A DNA stretch of 64,000 nt from Escherichia phage A4. Position 1 is the first letter of the stretch. Each line of letters starts with the position of its first letter. The translations under genes were made by a program, and so were the position numbers. This document shows, piece by piece, positions 47,978 through 56,769 of the stretch. The notes under the pieces were generated by a model. That model was not told the DNA's origin and ran no database searches. It saw only the letters and a list, made by a program, of their open reading frames with translations. The DNA lies in sequence record ON286972; one strand, 5' to 3'.

Positions 47978-48415
47978 ATGACACGCATTAACTTAGTACA
48001 TGTTAAAGAACTTGCTGACCAACATCTGATGGCTGAATATCGTGAACTTCCACGTGTGTTTGGTGCTGTACAAAAACATGTTCAAGCACGTAAGCGTGTA
48101 CGTGATTTCAAAATTAACAGTACTTATCTGTTAGGTTCAGGTCATGTAACATTCTTCTACGACAAGTTACTATACTTACAGAAGCGTCATATTGATATTG
48201 TTAACGAATGTTTGCGTCGTGGTATGAAGATTCAAAACACTGAAGTAAACGACATTAGCGGCTTCCCTGCTGAGTTTTGTAATGACTACGTACCATCGGA
48301 GTCCGAGATTAAAACATCACGCGAGCGTTTGATTGAGAAGCTTCAGATGAAGCCTAAGTGGTATAAGTTTACTGATGTTGAGCTACCTATATATTATGTT
48401 GATATGATACAATGA
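47978..48415 (+). CDS. denV: pyrimidine-dimer DNA glycosylase / endonuclease V
   Basis: Near full-length similarity to T4 endonuclease V as recalled: [30 protein letters not shown]...KRVRDFKI......[11 protein letters not shown]. Confidence 0.9.
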
Positions 48416-48639
48416 ATGATGAAGAATTCAAAAAATATGCGATTGCGAAGCTTGATTCATACAAGTCACGCGAAACGTATAAATTTAATCCTGATAAAAC
48501 AAAAGCATCTATAAGATGGATGATTAATTCACCCAAATATACATTTGACGAAAAATATTCATGGATAGTGCAATGTAGTGATTATGAGGATTTGGTATAT
48601 AATATTAAACTGTGTTGGTATGAATACAACAATAAATGA
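48412..48639 (+). CDS. hypothetical protein (75 aa)
   Basis: ORF track; ATGA overlap. Confidence 0.45.
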
Positions 48640-48645
48640 TATAAG

Positions 48646-48679
48646 GGGTTGACTTCGGTCAGCCCTTTTTGCTATAATC
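48646..48679 (+). promoter_or_regulatory. terminator/promoter cassette
   Basis: GGGTTGAC-TTCG-GTCAGCCC, TTTTT, TATAAT, CATTTCATC. Confidence 0.6.
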
Positions 48680-48704
48680 ATTTCATCAAATTAAGAGGTG
48701 ATAC

Positions 48705-48944
48705 ATGAAACTATCTTTTATACGTTTAGCAGAATTCTTCGGTACTGATATAATTACTTTACAACAAATTGCAGACAATACTTCATTAAGTACACAAGAA
48801 GTACTTGACTTAGATGTGATAGAGTGTGATAATACTTCTATCGATTATAAAGAAGGTCTTGTCGAAAAAGATAAGATTCAGGCTAAGATTAATGGTGCTG
48901 GACGGGTTCAGTACTGGAAAGGAGTTTTAAGTCATGCCAGCTAA
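48705..48944 (+). CDS. hypothetical protein (79 aa)
   Basis: ORF track; AGAGGTGA RBS. Confidence 0.45.
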   Translation: MKLSFIRLAEFFGTDIITLQQIADNTSLSTQEVLDLDVIECDNTSIDYKEGLVEKDKIQAKINGAGRVQYWKGVLSHAS

Positions 48945-50631
48945 ATTAACCCCTAAACAAGCAAAAGAAAAATTCAACAAAAAAGTATTAGAACATAACG
49001 TTCCAATTGAAGCTGATTATAGTAAGTATGAAAATGCCAAATTAAAAAACATCCAAGTAGTTTGCAATGATGTATTAAAACACAAATCAGGCATATCACA
49101 AATATATCTTATGGATCACGCAAACCTCACACACCCATCCAAAAAATTTGGTTGTCCTGAATGTGAAGACTGGTATAATGGTCATGCTAAAAGTTTAGAT
49201 ATTTTAATTGTTAGGGAAAGAATTAATTCTTGGATTAGTACTTATGGCGGGATTATTGATACGGTTAGTGGTGAAGTTGAAGTTTATAAAAATAATTCAT
49301 CCAAAATACCATATATTTGTAAAAATGGAACTAAAAAAACGCTTACTATTTCTTCACTTGGCGATGAAATCGGTTGTAATTGTTCTAAATGTAAAGCTGA
49401 ATTAATATCAGAAATCGAAGATAACAATGAATATACATCCATGACTACTGTTGATGATTGTGTTACAATTTCCCATTTTAAATTTGGGGATGATGTTGCA
49501 TTCTCGTGGATTTCACCATTGGAAATGAAAAAACATGGTTACTGTCTTGCCGAAAAAATGAAAGAAAAAGCATTGTCGGTTGGTAAAAATATTATTGGAT
49601 ATGCAATATCATCTCTTAGTGAATGGAAAAATGAAAAAACTCCTGTAATAACCGAACACGAAGGAGTATTATATCGTATTTCCAAAGCATCATATTTGAT
49701 CAATAATAATATAGTACATAGACCACATTATACAAAAAATAATTTTTTATATTATTTTTACAAATGTTCACCTAACAATCAACTTATTACACCAATCCTA
49801 ATACCTGATGATATTGGTACAAAAAAGAAAATTAAAGTATGTTATAAATCATGTGGGTGTGAATATGATATATCTGTGGACGTTATAATGAACAGAAATT
49901 TAAAAACTTGTGGAAACTGTAAAAATATAGATACTAATAAATTTATAGAACAGTGCTTGGAGTTCACTTCAAGTGGAGATTATATCTATGATAGAGTAAA
50001 CTATATAAATCAAAGTACACCTGTAACTATAGTTCATAAAATTTACGGCGAATTCAAAAGTACACCACAAAATCACTTAATACATTTAAAAAACGGTTTG
50101 AAATATGATACAGCTAACTTTAAAATAAAAAATTTAACTCAATTTAAAATTAAAGCAAATGAAGTTCATAATAACTTATATAATTATGATAAAGTTGATT
50201 ATGTAAATTCTTCAACGAAAGTATTAATAACTCATCCAGTATATGGAGACTTTTGGCAAACTCCAGCAAGTCACCTTGGTGGGTGTGGTCATCCACTTGC
50301 GGCTGGTCATTCTCAGCAATATGCATATATTCATAATATTTTGGATGGTGTTTTATCTGTAGCATTGAAATATGGGATTGAAAAGCAGAAAGGTAAGAGG
50401 GTGATGCAGCAAAATAAAAAATCCATGTTTCAAGTTCAATCTCTGTATACTTATTTTTTTCCATCTGTATACGAATGTAAGCAAGCTGAAAAAGAATGTA
50501 AGAAACTATTTGGTAAAGGTGTTTTAACTAAACAAGAAATGCCAGACGGGTATACTGAAACAACTACACCAAACAACATAGATAAAATTATTGCCATCTA
50601 TGAAAAATGGGGTGGGGTGAAACAAAACTAA
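48934..50631 (+). CDS. Cys-rich protein with three internal repeats (565 aa)
   Basis: ORF track; CPECEDW, CNCSKC, CGCEYD, CGNCKN pairs; repeat Y.YD.V.Y.N.ST.V.I.H..YG.F..TP..HL three times. Confidence 0.6.
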   Translation: MPAKLTPKQAKEKFNKKVLEHNVPIEADYSKYENAKLKNIQVVCNDVLKHKSGISQIYLMDHANLTHPSKKFGCPECEDWYNGHAKSLDILIVRERINSWISTYGGIIDTVSGEVEVYKNNSSKIPYICKNGTKKTLTISSLGDEIGCNCSKCKAELISEIEDNNEYTSMTTVDDCVTISHFKFGDDVAFSWISPLEMKKHGYCLAEKMKEKALSVGKNIIGYAISSLSEWKNEKTPVITEHEGVLYRISKASYLINNNIVHRPHYTKNNFLYYFYKCSPNNQLITPILIPDDIGTKKKIKVCYKSCGCEYDISVDVIMNRNLKTCGNCKNIDTNKFIEQCLEFTSSGDYIYDRVNYINQSTPVTIVHKIYGEFKSTPQNHLIHLKNGLKYDTANFKIKNLTQFKIKANEVHNNLYNYDKVDYVNSSTKVLITHPVYGDFWQTPASHLGGCGHPLAAGHSQQYAYIHNILDGVLSVALKYGIEKQKGKRVMQQNKKSMFQVQSLYTYFFPSVYECKQAEKECKKLFGKGVLTKQEMPDGYTETTTPNNIDKIIAIYEKWGGVKQN

Positions 50632-50637
50632 ACAAAA

Positions 50638-50671
50638 GGGTTGACTTCGGTCAGCCCTTTTTGCTATAATT
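50638..50671 (+). promoter_or_regulatory. terminator/promoter cassette
   Basis: GGGTTGAC-TTCG-GTCAGCCC, TTTTT, TATAAT, TATTTCATC. Confidence 0.6.
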
Positions 50672-50698
50672 ATTTCATCAACTGATGAGGACAACGAA

Positions 50699-51469: not shown

Positions 51470-51688
51470 TTGATAACACATAACATCGATAAGGTCATGT
51501 TATTATATGCATGTATTAACATGATTGTCGTTTTAGTTAAAGTTTATGGATGGTTTCATACACTTGATATTGATACTGAAAAGGAGTATAATCCTCAAGA
51601 AGCATCTCTTGGATTAAAAATTATTGTTTTAATTAGCGTAGTATCCGTATACATGGTATTACTATCAACTATGATTAAGTTCACTTAA
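51470..51688 (+). CDS. small integral membrane protein (72 aa)
   Basis: ORF track; two TM helices. Confidence 0.5.
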   Translation: MITHNIDKVMLLYACINMIVVLVKVYGWFHTLDIDTEKEYNPQEASLGLKIIVLISVVSVYMVLLSTMIKFT

Positions 51689-51698
51689 CGAGGAACAT

Positions 51699-52031
51699 AT
51701 GATTAATTTATTTTCAACTGAGGTTATGATTAAAATTACATTAGTATACATATGTCTATTCGTATACTACCACGCTCTCATCGGAATCTTGTGGTTCTTT
51801 AAGAAAGGTCGTATTCTTGAGAAATTGTACCCAGACTATATGATATTGTATACAATTGTCCAGGGTGTAGGAATAGTACTGGGAATTCTAGTGCACTTGA
51901 TATATTTGTTTGAACCACACCTTCCGTGTATTACACAATACATTGTATTCGGAACTACTATTATGTGGCTTGTAATGATGGGTGTGTATGGTCTGTATTT
52001 GTACAGGAAACGTATAGTGGGAGATTTCTAA
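51699..52031 (+). CDS. small integral membrane protein (110 aa)
   Basis: ORF track; multiple TM helices. Confidence 0.5.
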   Translation: MINLFSTEVMIKITLVYICLFVYYHALIGILWFFKKGRILEKLYPDYMILYTIVQGVGIVLGILVHLIYLFEPHLPCITQYIVFGTTIMWLVMMGVYGLYLYRKRIVGDF

Positions 52032-52384
52032 TGCAAGAGGTTATTAAATGGTTGACAACCAGTGATATTGCTAGTACACTGAACTATGTACTCATTATCT
52101 TATATCCGTTTTTGATGGTTCTAAACTTCATTGGATGGTATTTCAAACGTCCAATTTACTACAAGATTAATAATTCAGAGTACTATGAAAGTGTTGTAAT
52201 TGCAACCTCAATCACGTATACTATGGGTGCGGTTCTTACAGTCATAGGATTAGGTCAAGGTGATAATCTTAACTTTATGCTATGTACCTTTGTTATGATA
52301 TGTATTCCAACACTAATTGTAATTCTATCGAATATTGTGTGGAAAAAAATGTTATTTGCACGCAACAAAATACCGGAGGCATAA
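52031..52384 (+). CDS. small integral membrane protein (117 aa)
   Basis: Track ORF 51926..52384 trimmed to ATG 52031 after GGGAG; contains WYFKRPIYYKI. Confidence 0.5.
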   Translation: MQEVIKWLTTSDIASTLNYVLIILYPFLMVLNFIGWYFKRPIYYKINNSEYYESVVIATSITYTMGAVLTVIGLGQGDNLNFMLCTFVMICIPTLIVILSNIVWKKMLFARNKIPEA

Positions 52385-52719
52385 TGGAGTACTTTATCAG
52401 TTTACTACCGTGGTACTTGAAAGTAAGTACAATTTACTACATCATTTCCGCTGGGTTTTATTTCTTGATGTGGTTCTTTAAACGTCCAATCAGTGAATTC
52501 ATCGATAATCATATGATGAGTTTTAAACTTCACTGCTGGTTTTGGTCATCGTCAGTGATGCCATTCATCCATTACGGAATTATCAGTACTGGTAAACGTT
52601 CTAATGGTGAAATCATTTCCTTGGGTTTTTACTGGATATCGACTATTGTTTACATTGGTGTGCTTTTGTATCCATTTGTAGTTAAACTACGAAACTCTAT
52701 CCCAGATCACAGGAAATAA
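52384..52719 (+). CDS. small integral membrane protein (111 aa), paralog of preceding gene
   Basis: Track ORF 52282..52719 trimmed to ATG 52384 after GGAGG; contains WFFKRPISEFI. Confidence 0.5.
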   Translation: MEYFISLLPWYLKVSTIYYIISAGFYFLMWFFKRPISEFIDNHMMSFKLHCWFWSSSVMPFIHYGIISTGKRSNGEIISLGFYWISTIVYIGVLLYPFVVKLRNSIPDHRK

Positions 52720-52720
52720 T

Positions 52721-53041
52721 ATGAAGATTCAATTTATTCTTTTCACAGTAAGTGCATTCTACTTTTGGGTTTGCTGGATTGGTTTTCTCTTTGCACTAAA
52801 ACCATTTGACTTCTATGCAAAGCAGTGTAAAAATGCTGCTGTTGGTAATGTAGCTTTTACATTGCTTAGTACATTATGGGTAGTACTGATTATATTCAAT
52901 CCACCTGATAATGATTTGGAAATGTCATTGTGTACATTATTTGCAGGACTGTGTGTATTCGCAGCATTCTGTAGTTATATTGGAAAGTTATGTTCTTTGG
53001 TATCAAATTTCCATCGTAAACAAAAAGATAAGAGGGTATAA
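52721..53041 (+). CDS. small integral membrane protein (106 aa)
   Basis: ORF track. Confidence 0.5.
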   Translation: MKIQFILFTVSAFYFWVCWIGFLFALKPFDFYAKQCKNAAVGNVAFTLLSTLWVVLIIFNPPDNDLEMSLCTLFAGLCVFAAFCSYIGKLCSLVSNFHRKQKDKRV

Positions 53042-53424
53042 TGTACACAACAATATATGTTATTCTTAATATCCTAAGTGCATGTCTAACAATAGGTGCA
53101 TTAATATACATTGGAAAGTTCTTTTGTGTAAAGTTCGTCGAAGATGTGTATGAGGATATTGAATCCGACTACGAATCTAAGTGCTTCTTCCATGTTGGAT
53201 ATATCATTTGCTTAGTAACCACTATCTTCACATGGATTGTATACGTATTCGGGATTGGAATCACTTCAATTGGTGAACCAGTACTGTGCATTATTGGATT
53301 AGTGTTTTCTTCAATATTCGGGTTATTGTTCATGATTATTCTTATGTATAATTTAATCTGTACTGCTATTGTTCCTTTCTTTTATGAAATTCACAATAAC
53401 ATTAAACGTAAGAAACGAGGTTAA
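53041..53424 (+). CDS. small integral membrane protein (127 aa)
   Basis: ORF track. Confidence 0.5.
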   Translation: MYTTIYVILNILSACLTIGALIYIGKFFCVKFVEDVYEDIESDYESKCFFHVGYIICLVTTIFTWIVYVFGIGITSIGEPVLCIIGLVFSSIFGLLFMIILMYNLICTAIVPFFYEIHNNIKRKKRG

Positions 53425-53426
53425 TT

Positions 53427-53780
53427 ATGTTTTCTCCTGCTGGACAAGTTATATTCATGGTATGTACACTGGTATTCTTTATGTTGTCTGTACTATTTGT
53501 GATGAAATTCTTTCACATGAAACCATTCAGTACTTGGTATGATAATATTGTGTACTATATTGGTAATGCTATAACACTCTTTTCAGTTGCATACTATTTC
53601 GGTTATTTTGCAATGCTATTTGGGTTATTACTTGAAGCTCGTGCATTGCTTGTAGCTGGTATGGTGGCAGATTTAATGTGTCTAACACTAGCTTGTATTG
53701 GATTTACTGTATGTATGTCGTTAACCATTTTTGACAAATTATGTAAACTACACAAACGTTTAGGTGAGAGGATGAAATAA
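53427..53780 (+). CDS. small integral membrane protein (117 aa)
   Basis: ORF track. Confidence 0.5.
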   Translation: MFSPAGQVIFMVCTLVFFMLSVLFVMKFFHMKPFSTWYDNIVYYIGNAITLFSVAYYFGYFAMLFGLLLEARALLVAGMVADLMCLTLACIGFTVCMSLTIFDKLCKLHKRLGERMK

Positions 53781-54163
53781 TGACTTACCGTGATTACTTT
53801 TGTATTTTTGAAATTGCAGTATTCGCTTTAGGTTCAGTCTGGTTACTTCTATACTACTTCTGTATTAATCCAGTATTCAATTGGGTTCGTCGTGCTGAAC
53901 AAAGTAGTGCTGGACAAATAGCAGTTGTTATGGGTATGACATATTATATGTTCGCCGTGGCTTCTGTTGTTATTGAAGTAATATTTGGTGGCATGAATGG
54001 TGATGATGGGGCAACGTTCTATGGATTCGTAACATTCTTTAGTGTGCTGATTCCGTGTGGTGCTCTTATTATTACTGCGTTCTATTGGCTATATCGTGGT
54101 GTTAAGAAGCTGGAATCAATTCACGTAGATATGCGTTCAAAACGAATGGGGATTGACAAATAA
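53780..54163 (+). CDS. small integral membrane protein (127 aa)
   Basis: ORF track. Confidence 0.5.
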   Translation: MTYRDYFCIFEIAVFALGSVWLLLYYFCINPVFNWVRRAEQSSAGQIAVVMGMTYYMFAVASVVIEVIFGGMNGDDGATFYGFVTFFSVLIPCGALIITAFYWLYRGVKKLESIHVDMRSKRMGIDK

Positions 54164-54714
54164 TGAAACGAAGTTCTAATGTCATTCGCGAACGATTTCG
54201 TAAAGTAAAAACTATTAAGTACGGGACTATTGCTCTTGTACTTAGTAGTACTTTTATTATGACAGGATGTGAACGCTCTGAAGATATTTCTGTATATCAG
54301 AATGTGGACCAATGTAAAAGAAGTGGTAGCAATCCGGTACAGTGTGAAGATGATTATAAAAAAGCACTAACTGAATCGGAAAAGGTAGCACCAAAATATA
54401 GTTCACAAAGTGATTGCTCTAGTGATTTTGGTAATCAGTGTCAACAGCATAGCTCTGGATTCTTTTGGATGCCAATTATGAGTGGATTCCATAGTAGTGG
54501 TAATGGGTTTGCTAGTCAACCACTATACAACTCTAAAGGGAACTACTATGATGCTGGTGGTAACTCCTACGGTAGCAGTACTGCAAAAGGTACAACACGT
54601 ACTGTATCAAGTTCCGCATTAGCTCCAAAACCTCCTACAACGACCACAATCACCCGCAATGGGTTTGGGTCTTCAGTAGCCAGAAGTGCCGCTCACACGA
54701 GTTCTGGTGGATAA
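54163..54714 (+). CDS. lipoprotein (lipobox IMTGC), Ser/Gly/Thr-rich C-terminus
   Basis: N-terminus MKRSSNVIRERFRKVKTIKYGTIALVLSSTFIMTGC; ATGA overlap with upstream gene. Confidence 0.6.
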   Translation: MKRSSNVIRERFRKVKTIKYGTIALVLSSTFIMTGCERSEDISVYQNVDQCKRSGSNPVQCEDDYKKALTESEKVAPKYSSQSDCSSDFGNQCQQHSSGFFWMPIMSGFHSSGNGFASQPLYNSKGNYYDAGGNSYGSSTAKGTTRTVSSSALAPKPPTTTTITRNGFGSSVARSAAHTSSGG

Positions 54715-54715
54715 T

Positions 54716-54745
54716 AAAAAAGCCCACATTAAGTGGGCTTTTTGT
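54716..54745. terminator. bidirectional intrinsic terminator between convergent gene blocks
   Basis: AGCCCAC-ATTAA-GTGGGCT hairpin flanked by AAAAA and TTTTGTT. Confidence 0.6.
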
Positions 54746-56769
54746 TATTTGTGTTTTATGTGTAAAGTGTCTAATATTGTATTGAACAATGATTTAGCAG
54801 AAATCATGATTACTTGATCAAAATCTTTAGTATAAGAAATATTAGCAGTACTGGAAGAATCTTTCACCTCATCCGGTAATGCATCAAACTCTTCTTTTTC
54901 CATAATCTTTTCAAGTTCTTCACGAGAAATGGCTTTTACGTTTTCAATAGTCCTTAGTTGTATATTATAATCTTTATAATACGAAACTAAGTTCGTTGCG
55001 TATGAACCATCTTTAGATGCTGTTCCAGTAAAATCATAACATCCTGTATCAGTACTAACCCAATCGATTTTCCCTGAACTACCACTATATACACCTTTGT
55101 TGAACTTAATGTTAACAACATCACCAATAGTTTTCAATATACCACCTTTACATTCATTAAATGCGTTTAATTGATAACTTGTAGTCATATAGAATTTCGG
55201 TTCTAATGTAACAGTATCACCTACAGTTGCTTTCATATCAGAAACACTTAAGAACAATTCATTAAATCCTTTTGAATAAGTCTTGGTAATTGTTGTTCCA
55301 TCCCTGTTAGTTACTGTGTATTCTAAGTCCAATTCACAAATACTATTCAATGATAAGTAAGGGATATCAAATTTATCAGTACTAGCATCATAAGGACATC
55401 TTGAGGATGGTAGTATACCAGTAGGGTTTGGTACGTATTGAACTTTTGTTAACTCATACCCGCTTGCATTCGCTGGTGTAACTGTAATAGACGGTGTAGA
55501 TATTCCTTTCATTCCACAGAAGTATATGTTATCTGGAAAATCATTTATTACGAAGTCAGTGACAGGAATATCATAAGTATCTTTATCAGTCCAATTAAGA
55601 ACAACATTAGAACTGGTTGGATCAACAATATGTTCACTAGAACCACAGAAATATACTGATTTGGTATTAGTAATCATTAGTAATGTTTTGGATGATGAGT
55701 TCAATTCAAGAACATCTTTCACTTCAAGACCAGATGGTAATGTCAATGGTAACTTCGTAAATGATGTTAAATCTTGTTCATCTTTAACACCACTAGTCCC
55801 CGCCGGAAACTTACCTGAACCATAGAAAACACCTTTATTCGTCATGAAATACATGAACGGGGTTGATGTTCCTTTGTCAAATAGTTGAATGTCATCACAT
55901 GTTAAACCATCAGGTAAATCCACTTTAGATGGAGTTCTATAAACACCAGGCTTAATACCACCTTCACCATTACTTACATCACCTAGTACATATAAATCTT
56001 TACCTAGTTTCAAGAACATTGATTTATTTTTAGCACACAAGAATGTATCATATGATTTATCATCAATTGGTAGCTTGGTATATTCGGTGTATGTAGGCAT
56101 TGAATCATCAATCCACGAACTATCACCACTAATGTAAATGTGATTGTTTCTGTCAATATAATATGAATACACATCAGTACTGTTCATATATAAAGCATTT
56201 AGTGCATTTGTTTTCACTAAGTGATTGAACTTAAGAACTTGTTTTCCATCGTACTTATGGGAGTTGACACCAATATCACCATTTAGGCTACTACCAATTG
56301 AATATATATGACCACGTGGTAATAGAACTTGAACACCACTTTTGGTTAAATTATATTTGGAGTGCAAGAGATCGTTATATACAACTCTAACTTTCTTAAA
56401 GATATCAGTACATTCAATCCACGATTTAGATGGTGTACCATCCATTCCTATTATTGCCGGATCACCATAATAATAAGCTTTATTTTCATATGATATTTTA
56501 AAAGATGATTTACCATCTTTTGTATTAGCACTGAAGTACACATCTTTACTATCTTTAATTGGATAAGTACTATTCTCTACAAAAGTATTATATGAGATAT
56601 CGTTGTTAGCACTATTAAGAACAAAAGAAGTAGATGTACTATTGGACTTATAGACTGCTACGGAAGATGTATCACTGAAATCAATTTTAGTGAACGTATC
56701 TTTGTATGTTTCGTTTAATAATCCTACATAAAAAACATCAGTGCCATCCATCAGTAACGAATATAGCAT
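54745..56769 (-). CDS. RCC1-like repeat protein, possibly the C-terminal part of a frameshifted gene continuing from 56738..57682
   Basis: ORF track; no RBS before its ATG; frame opens 29 nt upstream of the stop of the preceding minus-strand ORF. Confidence 0.55.
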   Translation of the reverse strand: MLYSLLMDGTDVFYVGLLNETYKDTFTKIDFSDTSSVAVYKSNSTSTSFVLNSANNDISYNTFVENSTYPIKDSKDVYFSANTKDGKSSFKISYENKAYYYGDPAIIGMDGTPSKSWIECTDIFKKVRVVYNDLLHSKYNLTKSGVQVLLPRGHIYSIGSSLNGDIGVNSHKYDGKQVLKFNHLVKTNALNALYMNSTDVYSYYIDRNNHIYISGDSSWIDDSMPTYTEYTKLPIDDKSYDTFLCAKNKSMFLKLGKDLYVLGDVSNGEGGIKPGVYRTPSKVDLPDGLTCDDIQLFDKGTSTPFMYFMTNKGVFYGSGKFPAGTSGVKDEQDLTSFTKLPLTLPSGLEVKDVLELNSSSKTLLMITNTKSVYFCGSSEHIVDPTSSNVVLNWTDKDTYDIPVTDFVINDFPDNIYFCGMKGISTPSITVTPANASGYELTKVQYVPNPTGILPSSRCPYDASTDKFDIPYLSLNSICELDLEYTVTNRDGTTITKTYSKGFNELFLSVSDMKATVGDTVTLEPKFYMTTSYQLNAFNECKGGILKTIGDVVNIKFNKGVYSGSSGKIDWVSTDTGCYDFTGTASKDGSYATNLVSYYKDYNIQLRTIENVKAISREELEKIMEKEEFDALPDEVKDSSSTANISYTKDFDQVIMISAKSLFNTILDTLHIKHK

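What the first reader, a model, noticed from the sequence alone, without database searches (positions are those of the whole stretch)
48934..50631. 565-aa Cys-rich protein built from three copies of an unrecognised repeat
The repeat Y-x-YD-x-V-x-Y-x-N-x-ST-x-V-x-I-x-H-x-x-YG-x-F-x-x-TP-x-x-HL occurs at about aa 30-75, 345-395 and 415-465. Zinc-ribbon-like Cys pairs (CPECEDW, CNCSKCK, CGCEYD, CGNCKN) separate the copies. I cannot assign it to a known family; it may be a nucleic-acid-binding or homing-endonuclease-associated domain.
Basis: seen in the sequence. Interest (0 to 1): 0.5.

Follow-up and report, generated by a model that had tools for sequence, protein, structure and literature searches.

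The report
Phage homing-type nuclease with finger repeats
This gene of a jumbo E. coli phage encodes an ordinary, already described kind of selfish phage nuclease: a string of small DNA-binding finger repeats joined to a GIY-YIG-type (T5orf172) cutting domain, so the "unrecognised repeat" belongs to a known family.

Summary
The 565-aa ORF (48934-50631, +) is real and under purifying selection. The first (aa ~13-77) has only weak profile support. An unlisted copy (aa 96-154) is significant.

The repeat is not unknown. It is the DUF723/DUF4379/CapR treble-clef finger, the DNA-binding module of phage T5orf172 putative homing endonucleases. The "Cys pairs between copies" that could be placed (CPEC, CNCSKC) are the zinc knuckles of further copies; the other two motifs could not be placed. 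The two best copies have lost all four zinc ligands.

Four related Salmonella phages lack exactly this ORF at the same site. Other relatives carry different alleles, a 63-codon repeat copy-number change, or a frameshift. This repeat architecture and this behaviour were described for ICP1-like phages in 2023 (PMC10448857).

Verdict: a new member of a known kind, of low interest. The only mildly new point is the zinc-less repeat subtype.

The parts
48934..50631 (+). 565-aa ORF: a free-standing putative homing endonuclease gene with a finger-repeat array followed by a T5orf172/GIY-YIG nuclease domain.
   Evidence: ORF. PHROG 681 'endonuclease' at 7e-48. dN/dS 0.23 against the slurp01 ortholog.
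48920..48924 (+). AGGAG ribosome-binding site 9 nt upstream of the ATG. It lies inside the end of the upstream 79-aa ORF and is also present in the empty site.
   Evidence: Sequence.
48970..49164 (+). Finger copy 1 (aa 13-77). It is divergent, carries two small insertions, and keeps putative zinc ligands C44, H50, C74 and C77.
   Evidence: hhalign E 0.0037 over the full unit. The knuckle is reached by 21/2000 shuffles. Shared with P0137 at 1.7e-26. Weak evidence overall.
49219..49395 (+). Finger copy 2 (aa 96-154). Putative zinc ligands are C129, C148 or C150, and C153.
   Evidence: 16 bits with a query-independent core HMM, 0/2000 shuffles. hhalign E 8.4e-5.
49396..49938 (+). aa 155-335: unresolved, Cys- and His-containing region. 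It probably holds 2-3 further degenerate finger modules (about 160-205, 208-260, 290-331).
   Evidence: Only weak signals: hhalign E 0.075 for aa 208-239 and SW z 1.6-2.2. AF2 pLDDT below 50 but with recurring helix-hairpin-helix elements. PHROG 681 and 559 profiles cover it.
49939..50109 (+). Finger copy at aa 336-392. The sequence is strongly conserved, but the zinc ligands are replaced (C to H, H to Y, no CxxC).
   Evidence: AF2 pLDDT above 85.
50140..50301 (+). Finger copy at aa 403-456. The zinc ligands are replaced (T/H, Y, H, A). It directly abuts the nuclease domain.
   Evidence: 1.4e-27 to the repeat HMM. Ligand columns. 33% identical, together with the nuclease domain, to ICP1 TcgB/Gp130.
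50141..50265 (+). 125-nt segment that is present twice, 189 nt apart and 100% identical, in phage slurp01. It is the site of the in-frame 63-codon copy-number difference.
50302..50622 (+). T5orf172/MUG113-type GIY-YIG nuclease domain (aa 457-563). Family-invariant residues are Y465, K479, G481, R489, E519, D538, G539 and E542.
48643..48698 (+). Upstream copy of a hairpin / sigma-70 promoter / RBS cassette that bounds the transcription unit (79-aa ORF plus nuclease gene).
50635..50690 (+). Downstream copy (91% identical) of the same hairpin-promoter cassette, immediately after the stop codon.
48705..48944 (+). Conserved 79-aa ORF (PHROG 34150, function unknown). Its last 11 nt overlap the nuclease ORF, and it is kept in phages that lack the nuclease gene.

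Best explanation
The gene encodes a free-standing, homing-type site-specific DNA endonuclease of the phage T5orf172 class, a branch of the GIY-YIG superfamily.

The N-terminal ~455 aa are a 'beads on a string' array of DUF723/DUF4379/CapR-type treble-clef finger modules. At least four are recognisable and probably about seven are present. Together they are inferred to read an extended DNA site.

The C-terminal ~110 aa are the catalytic domain, which is inferred to cut nearby. During co-infection with a related phage that lacks the gene, cleavage near the 79-aa-ORF / ATPase-gene junction would be repaired from the gene-carrying genome, copying the ORF into the empty site.

Shown here:
- the domain identities
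- the repeat structure
- purifying selection on the gene
- precise presence/absence at the locus and allele turnover there

Inferred, not shown: DNA binding, cleavage, the target site, and homing itself.
For: Nuclease domain
- aa 452-565 has 532 representative homologs, always at the C-terminus of 100-590-aa proteins.
- 23/46 of these domains hit Pfam MUG113 (best 6.6e-7) and 18/46 hit T5orf172 (best 7.7e-6).
- The AF2 model has pLDDT 88 and beta-beta-alpha-beta-alpha-alpha topology.
- Y465, K479-x-G481, R489 and E542 are invariant or nearly so. Their order and spacing match the GIY...YIG...R...E pattern.
- In the T5orf172 nuclease Odn, the equivalent Glu (E180A) is required for cleavage (PMC8263062).

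Finger repeats
- The homolog repeat consensus is EFIEKAKKIHGDKYDYSKVEYVNSKTKVTIICPEHGEFEQTPNNHLSGQGCPKC.
- Its units hit DUF4379, DUF723 and CapR.
- The four Cys of CapR are required for DNA binding (PMC8096241).

Close relatives
- The protein is 33% identical over 166 aa to ICP1 TcgB/Gp130, a published putative T5orf172 homing endonuclease (E 4e-24).
- BFVD structural neighbours are named CapR-homology, GIY-YIG, homing endonuclease or T5orf172 proteins.

Mobility signatures
- Salmonella phages SD-15_S21, SD-6_S16, SD-2_S15 and SD-1_S14 align in one piece across the junction. They lack exactly window 48933 to about 50629, which is the ORF and nothing else.
- Ecwhy_1 and 121Q carry different alleles at the same site.
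- slurp01 and phAPEC6 have one extra 63-aa repeat between 125-nt identical direct repeats. E9.1 has a frameshifted allele.
- dS jumps from 0.05 to 0.34 at the repeat/nuclease boundary.
- PMC10448857 describes all of these behaviours for T5orf172 homing endonuclease genes.

Gene function
- dN/dS is 0.23 overall and 0.12 in the nuclease domain.
Against: - The query itself reaches no Pfam or NCBIfam threshold, so membership is transitive.
- The two best-conserved fingers lack all zinc ligands, whereas the Cys residues are essential in CapR. Their DNA-binding competence is therefore assumed.
- aa 155-335 is unresolved (pLDDT below 50).
- No cleavage site is known.
- Homing has not been demonstrated experimentally for any T5orf172 gene (PMC10448857).
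- The presence/absence pattern could also arise from precise deletion.
- The neighbouring genes are of unknown function, not the essential genes near which such nuclease genes usually sit.
Confidence: 0.75

Rival explanations
1. Domesticated derivative. The biochemistry is the same (sequence-specific DNA binder, with or without cutting) but the phage uses it for its own benefit. Possible roles are excluding or degrading competing phages or satellites (as ICP1 Odn does), degrading host DNA, or repressing transcription (as PLE CapR and I-TevI do).
For: Odn and CapR show that this protein class is readily co-opted. A nuclease gene of this class occupies this locus in every sequenced E. coli Asteriusvirus examined here: slurp01, phAPEC6, E9.1, Ecwhy_1 and 121Q. 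The gene is under purifying selection. It sits in an early-type transcription unit behind a near-consensus sigma-70 promoter.
Against: Four related phages lack it entirely with no compensating gene at the site. Alleles are swapped and one is frameshifted, which is the turnover pattern of a selfish gene rather than a fixed function. The catalytic residues are intact, so a pure repressor role like CapR's is unlikely.
Confidence: 0.15
2. Decaying or inactive remnant of a homing endonuclease gene. The ORF is still open but no longer encodes a working site-specific nuclease, because the DNA-binding fingers have degenerated.
For: Both fingers next to the nuclease domain have lost all zinc ligands. 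aa 155-335 is barely recognisable as finger modules. Repeat-region dN/dS is 0.65 on small counts. The E9.1 allele is frameshifted.
Against: A 1.7-kb ORF is intact in at least four independent sequences: the window, P0001, slurp01 and phAPEC6. dN/dS is 0.23 overall and 0.12 in the nuclease domain. Zinc-less fingers form whole arrays in other family members, for example 8 of 9 units in P0002, 4 of 4 in P0003 and 5 of 5 in P0037. They are modelled at pLDDT above 90. This indicates a stable subtype rather than decay.
Confidence: 0.07
3. It is an HNH endonuclease (as annotated in phage E9.1 and implied by PHROG 559) or a UvrC excision-repair subunit (as annotated in phAPEC6).
For: Database labels only: 'HNH endonuclease' for the E9.1 fragment, PHROG 559 at 5e-19, and 'exonuclease ABC C subunit' in phAPEC6.
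Confidence: 0.02

Closest known systems
ICP1 T5orf172 putative homing endonucleases, e.g. TcgB/Gp130 (Netter 2021, PMC8096241; Barth, Dunham and Seed 2023, PMC10448857)
   Same: Same architecture: N-terminal repeated CapR/DUF723/DUF4379 fingers and a C-terminal T5orf172 domain. 33% identity over the last finger plus nuclease domain (E 4e-24). Free-standing ORF. Intragenic repeat recombination gives in-frame copy-number alleles: ICP1 gp174 versus gp174* (228 bp) there, 189 bp here. Domain swapping occurs between alleles.
   Different: Different phage lineage (Asteriusvirus jumbo coliphage) and a longer array. The two nuclease-proximal fingers have no zinc ligands. Neither the finger nor the nuclease Pfam models detect the query directly. 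The neighbours are genes of unknown function rather than essential genes such as terL.
PLE CapR (Pfam PF21817, CapR homology domain)
   Same: Same finger family. 6/29 homologous repeat units hit the CapR model. It is a DNA-binding zinc finger whose four Cys are required for binding.
   Different: CapR has no nuclease domain and acts as a repressor. CapR uses a CxxC...CxC ligand set. The family repeat here is C...H...CxxC (290/376 instances), or zinc-less in the query.
ICP1 Odn (Gp88), the only biochemically characterised T5orf172 nuclease cited in the papers read here (PMC8263062)
   Same: C-terminal T5orf172 domain with conserved Arg and catalytic Glu. It is a sequence-directed double-strand cutter, with specificity supplied by a separate N-terminal DNA-binding domain.
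   Different: Odn uses a RepA_N domain instead of finger repeats. It is an anti-satellite weapon, not a homing gene.
I-TevI and the T4 Seg proteins (canonical GIY-YIG homing endonucleases)
   Different: Domain order is reversed: the nuclease is N-terminal in I-TevI and Seg. The DNA-binding modules differ (NUMOD or helix-turn-helix). There is no detectable sequence similarity.
SLX1 / HIGLE structure-specific GIY-YIG (URI) nucleases
   Different: These are eukaryotic proteins with 11-14% identity. They are partnered with a RING or PHD finger and SLX4, and they are structure-specific rather than sequence-specific.

Membership tests
T5orf172 / MUG113 (Pfam PF10544 / PF13455; GIY-YIG clan) | Pfam model matches the protein itself | tested here: not met
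   No T5orf172, MUG113 or GIY-YIG hit at E up to 10 for the full protein or for aa 458-565 alone (part A).
T5orf172 / MUG113 (Pfam PF10544 / PF13455; GIY-YIG clan) | Clear homologs of the domain match the Pfam models (transitive membership) | tested here: met
   Of 46 domains that are 38-91% identical to the query domain, 23 hit MUG113 (best 6.6e-7) and 18 hit T5orf172 (best 7.7e-6).
GIY-YIG superfamily | Three-stranded sheet with flanking helices (beta-beta-alpha-beta-alpha-alpha) resembling solved GIY-YIG domains | tested here: met
GIY-YIG superfamily | Conserved Tyr (strand 1), Tyr/Phe-x-Gly (strand 2), Arg (helix 1) and catalytic Glu | tested here: met
   Y465, K479-Y480-G481, R489 and E542 are invariant or at least 90% conserved in 150 and 46 homologs. 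They were mapped by order, spacing and secondary structure, not by superposition.
GIY-YIG superfamily | Metal-dependent DNA cleavage | not testable with these tools
   Needs a biochemical assay. The precedent is Odn E180A (PMC8263062).
DUF723 / DUF4379 / CapR finger (PF05265 / PF14311 / PF21817) | Pfam model matches the query's repeat units | tested here: not met
   No hit for aa 336-392, 402-459 or 1-84 at E up to 10. A precomputed PF05265 entry exists for the 95%-identical P0001.
DUF723 / DUF4379 / CapR finger (PF05265 / PF14311 / PF21817) | Repeat units are homologous to units that match the Pfam models | tested here: met
   The query units match the homolog-derived repeat HMM at 2.6e-18 and 1.4e-27. 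Units in that alignment hit DUF4379 (15/29), DUF723 (9/29) and CapR (6/29). Whole homologs do too.
DUF723 / DUF4379 / CapR finger (PF05265 / PF14311 / PF21817) | Four zinc ligands (C, H/C, C, C) of the treble clef | tested here: inconclusive
   Ligands are present in copy 1 (C44, H50, C74, C77) and copy 2 (C129, C148 or C150, C153). All are absent in the copies at 336-392 and 403-456. Across the family, 316/376 units have a full set.
DUF723 / DUF4379 / CapR finger (PF05265 / PF14311 / PF21817) | Sequence-specific DNA binding | not testable with these tools
   The precedent is the CapR band-shift assay with Cys mutants (PMC8096241).
Free-standing homing endonuclease gene | Presence/absence polymorphism with precise boundaries at one genomic site among related genomes | tested here: met
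   Four Salmonella Asteriusvirus genomes lack exactly the ORF. The flanks are 92-95% identical and join in one BLAST piece.
Free-standing homing endonuclease gene | The encoded nuclease cleaves the gene-less allele near the insertion site, and the gene is over-inherited in crosses | not testable with these tools
PMC10448857 states that homing is unverified for ICP1's T5orf172 genes as well.
HNH endonuclease (label on the E9.1 fragment and PHROG 559) | HNH / beta-beta-alpha-metal catalytic motif | tested here: not met
   No HNH Pfam model at E up to 10. The PHROG 559 match is confined to the finger region, aa 176-384.

The most novel reading that the evidence does not exclude
The zinc-less version of the DUF723 finger may be a distinct, metal-independent DNA-recognition module. 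In it the ligands C/H/C/C are replaced together by D, H or T / Y or F / H / R or A. It is seen here in the two nuclease-proximal units and as whole arrays of 3-8 units in about a dozen family members. Its tandem arrays change copy number by recombination. Under this reading they would form a modular, re-assortable DNA-reading code that sets nuclease specificity, somewhat as zinc-finger or TALE arrays do.
Probability: 0.1. Interest if true: 0.55.

Novelty: new member of a known kind. Interest (0 to 1): 0.2.

Why it matters
The result mainly corrects annotation. Orthologs of this gene are currently labelled 'hypothetical protein', 'HNH endonuclease' or 'exonuclease ABC C subunit'. It shows that the repeat-array T5orf172 nucleases described in ICP1-like vibriophages also turn over at a fixed site in Asteriusvirus jumbo coliphages. 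The locus offers a clean occupied/empty site pair that could be used to test homing by a T5orf172 nuclease, which has not yet been shown experimentally. The zinc-less finger subtype is a small structural curiosity. Nothing here challenges current understanding.

Tried and rejected
- Direct Pfam and NCBIfam scans of the protein and of single repeat units gave no relevant hit.
- Self-BLASTP reported no internal repeat. It was replaced by Smith-Waterman alignment with shuffles and by profile methods.
- PDB sequence searches found nothing meaningful with the protein, the nuclease-domain profile or the repeat profile.
- The word-indexed homolog search with the nuclease domain found only one protein. 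The exhaustive representative search was needed.
- The full-length AF2 model has pLDDT below 50 for aa 21-325, because only near-identical orthologs cover that part. Foldseek against the PDB with it returned noise. The N-terminal modules therefore rest on sequence profiles only.
- The afdb50 fold library was unavailable.
- tblastn with aa 1-335 found only the three orthologs and one weak hit.
- No paralog of the repeat or of the nuclease domain exists elsewhere in the window.
- The HNH and UvrC readings were rejected (see rival explanations).
- Loss by recombination between the flanking 56-nt cassettes was rejected as the origin of the empty site. It would also have removed the 79-aa ORF, which the empty-site phages keep.

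Full report
**Context.** The window is from an Asteriusvirus-type jumbo coliphage. The gene region is 96.6% identical at nucleotide level to phages vB_Eco_slurp01 and phAPEC6. Its neighbours are a DenV pyrimidine-dimer glycosylase upstream and a P-loop ATPase-like gene of unknown function downstream.

**The observation.**
- The ORF 48934..50631 (+) encodes 565 aa and starts 9 nt after an AGGAG.
- It has 19 Cys, 16 of them in the first 341 residues.
- The copies at aa 336-392 and 403-458 are unquestionably related. Their Smith-Waterman score is 107 against 23 +/- 4.5 for shuffles (0/2000).
- That first copy does align over the full unit in a profile-profile comparison, once the only divergent homolog of the N-terminus (P0137) is added. 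The alignment has E 0.0037 and places F14, H21, DYS, C44, H50 and C74-x-x-C77 in the expected columns. I treat this as weak support.
It scores 16 bits with an HMM that contains no query-derived sequence (0/2000 shuffles) and hhalign E 8.4e-5.
- So two of the 'Cys pairs that separate the copies', CPEC and CNCSKC, are the zinc knuckles of copies 1 and 2.
- aa 155-335, which holds the other two motifs (CGCEYD, CGNCKN), gives only faint signals. Its AF2 model is low-confidence. It probably holds two or three more degenerate modules, but this is not shown.

**What the repeat is.**
- Homologs from metagenomes and phages carry 1-9 copies of the same unit.
- The consensus is EFIEKAKKIHGDKYDYSKVEYVNSKTKVTIICPEHGEFEQTPNNHLSGQGCPKC.
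- These homologs, and single units cut from them, match Pfam DUF723, DUF4379 ('probable treble clef zinc finger') and the CapR homology domain.
- Across 376 units, the four ligand columns read CHCC in 290 and CCCC in 26.
- In the query's two best copies the ligands are replaced: H or T, then Y, then H or nothing, then A or nothing.
- About 30 units in a dozen proteins show the same coordinated loss, sometimes across whole arrays. AF2 models the query's zinc-less units at pLDDT above 85-90. This therefore looks like a stable zinc-less subtype rather than decay.

**The C-terminal domain.**
- aa 452-565 has 532 representative homologs, always C-terminal.
- Invariant or near-invariant residues are Y465, K479, G481, I482, R489, E519, D538, G539 and E542.
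- Half of the homologous domains hit Pfam MUG113 or T5orf172.
- The domain model (pLDDT 88) has beta-beta-alpha-beta-alpha-alpha topology.
- Viral structural neighbours are named CapR-homology, GIY-YIG, homing endonuclease or T5orf172 proteins.
- The protein is 33% identical over 166 aa to ICP1 TcgB/Gp130.

**Literature.**
- Barth, Dunham and Seed (2023, PMC10448857) describe this class. It consists of T5orf172 putative homing endonucleases with repeated CapR/DUF723/DUF4379 fingers arranged as 'beads on a string'. They report in-frame deletions between intragenic repeats and domain swapping.
- Experimental anchors are the T5orf172 nuclease Odn, whose E180A mutant is inactive (PMC8263062), and CapR, whose four Cys are needed for DNA binding (PMC8096241).
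- Homing itself has not been verified for these genes.

**Behaviour of the locus.**
- Four Salmonella Asteriusvirus genomes join the upstream 79-aa ORF directly to the downstream promoter and ATPase gene. The difference from the window is the ORF alone, 48933 to about 50629.
- Ecwhy_1 has a 447-aa allele. Its similarity to the window breaks at the start codon and resumes inside the nuclease domain.
- 121Q has a third, 487-aa allele.
- slurp01 and phAPEC6 have one extra 63-aa finger between two identical 125-nt repeats spaced 189 nt apart. The window has the single-copy form.
- E9.1 is frameshifted.
- Against slurp01, dN/dS is 0.23 overall and 0.12 in the nuclease domain. dS jumps from 0.05 to 0.34 at the finger/nuclease boundary, which points to a recombination junction inside the gene.

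**Conclusion.** This is a free-standing T5orf172/GIY-YIG homing-type endonuclease gene with a DUF723/CapR-type finger array. It is a new member of a known and recently described kind. Domain identities and mobility signatures are shown. DNA binding, cleavage, the target site and homing are inferred.

Noticed in passing
window 48643-48698 and 50635-50690; also 41163, 45454, 47920: A ~56-nt cassette combines a GC-rich hairpin (GGGTTGAC-TTCG-GTCAGCCC) with a T run, overlapping a near-consensus extended sigma-70 promoter (TTGACT-18-TATAAT) and an RBS. Five copies occur in the window, all on the + strand, where none is expected by chance. Two copies bracket the nuclease transcription unit. From memory, it resembles the 'PeSL' promoter-stem-loop cassettes of T4-type phages that are thought to mediate gene shuffling.
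   Followed up: partly
window 48412-48639: A 75-aa ORF between denV and the hairpin-promoter cassette has no PHROG match. It is replaced by an unrelated 119-aa ORF in slurp01, phAPEC6 and E9.1. This is a second variable slot directly upstream of the nuclease unit.
   Followed up: no
window 51470-54163: A run of at least seven consecutive small (72-152 aa), very hydrophobic ORFs lies on the + strand. Its nucleotide similarity to the closest phages is far lower (about 70% or undetectable) than that of the flanking genes.
   Followed up: no
window about 54000-56000: GC skew changes sign (positive before, negative after). This suggests a switch of coding strand or transcription direction.
   Followed up: no
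L007 2220-2999 (Salmonella phage SD-15_S21): The DenV homolog is annotated as a 259-aa 'endonuclease'. Its first ~135 aa match the window's 145-aa DenV and are followed by an unrelated ~120-aa extension.
   Followed up: no
L006 10881-12691 (phage 121Q genes 221 and 222): A third, unrelated-looking 487-aa allele occupies the nuclease locus, followed by an extra 93-aa ORF. It has CxxC fingers and a C-terminal GDGYTET motif. Its N-terminal region looks like that of the Ecwhy_1 allele by eye.
   Followed up: partly
L005 1998-3492 (ICP1 2017_Dha_O): tcgB (Gp130) sits immediately upstream of a terL gene that is annotated in two pieces. This is an example of the essential-gene association of this nuclease class, which contrasts with the neighbourhood in the window.
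   Followed up: no
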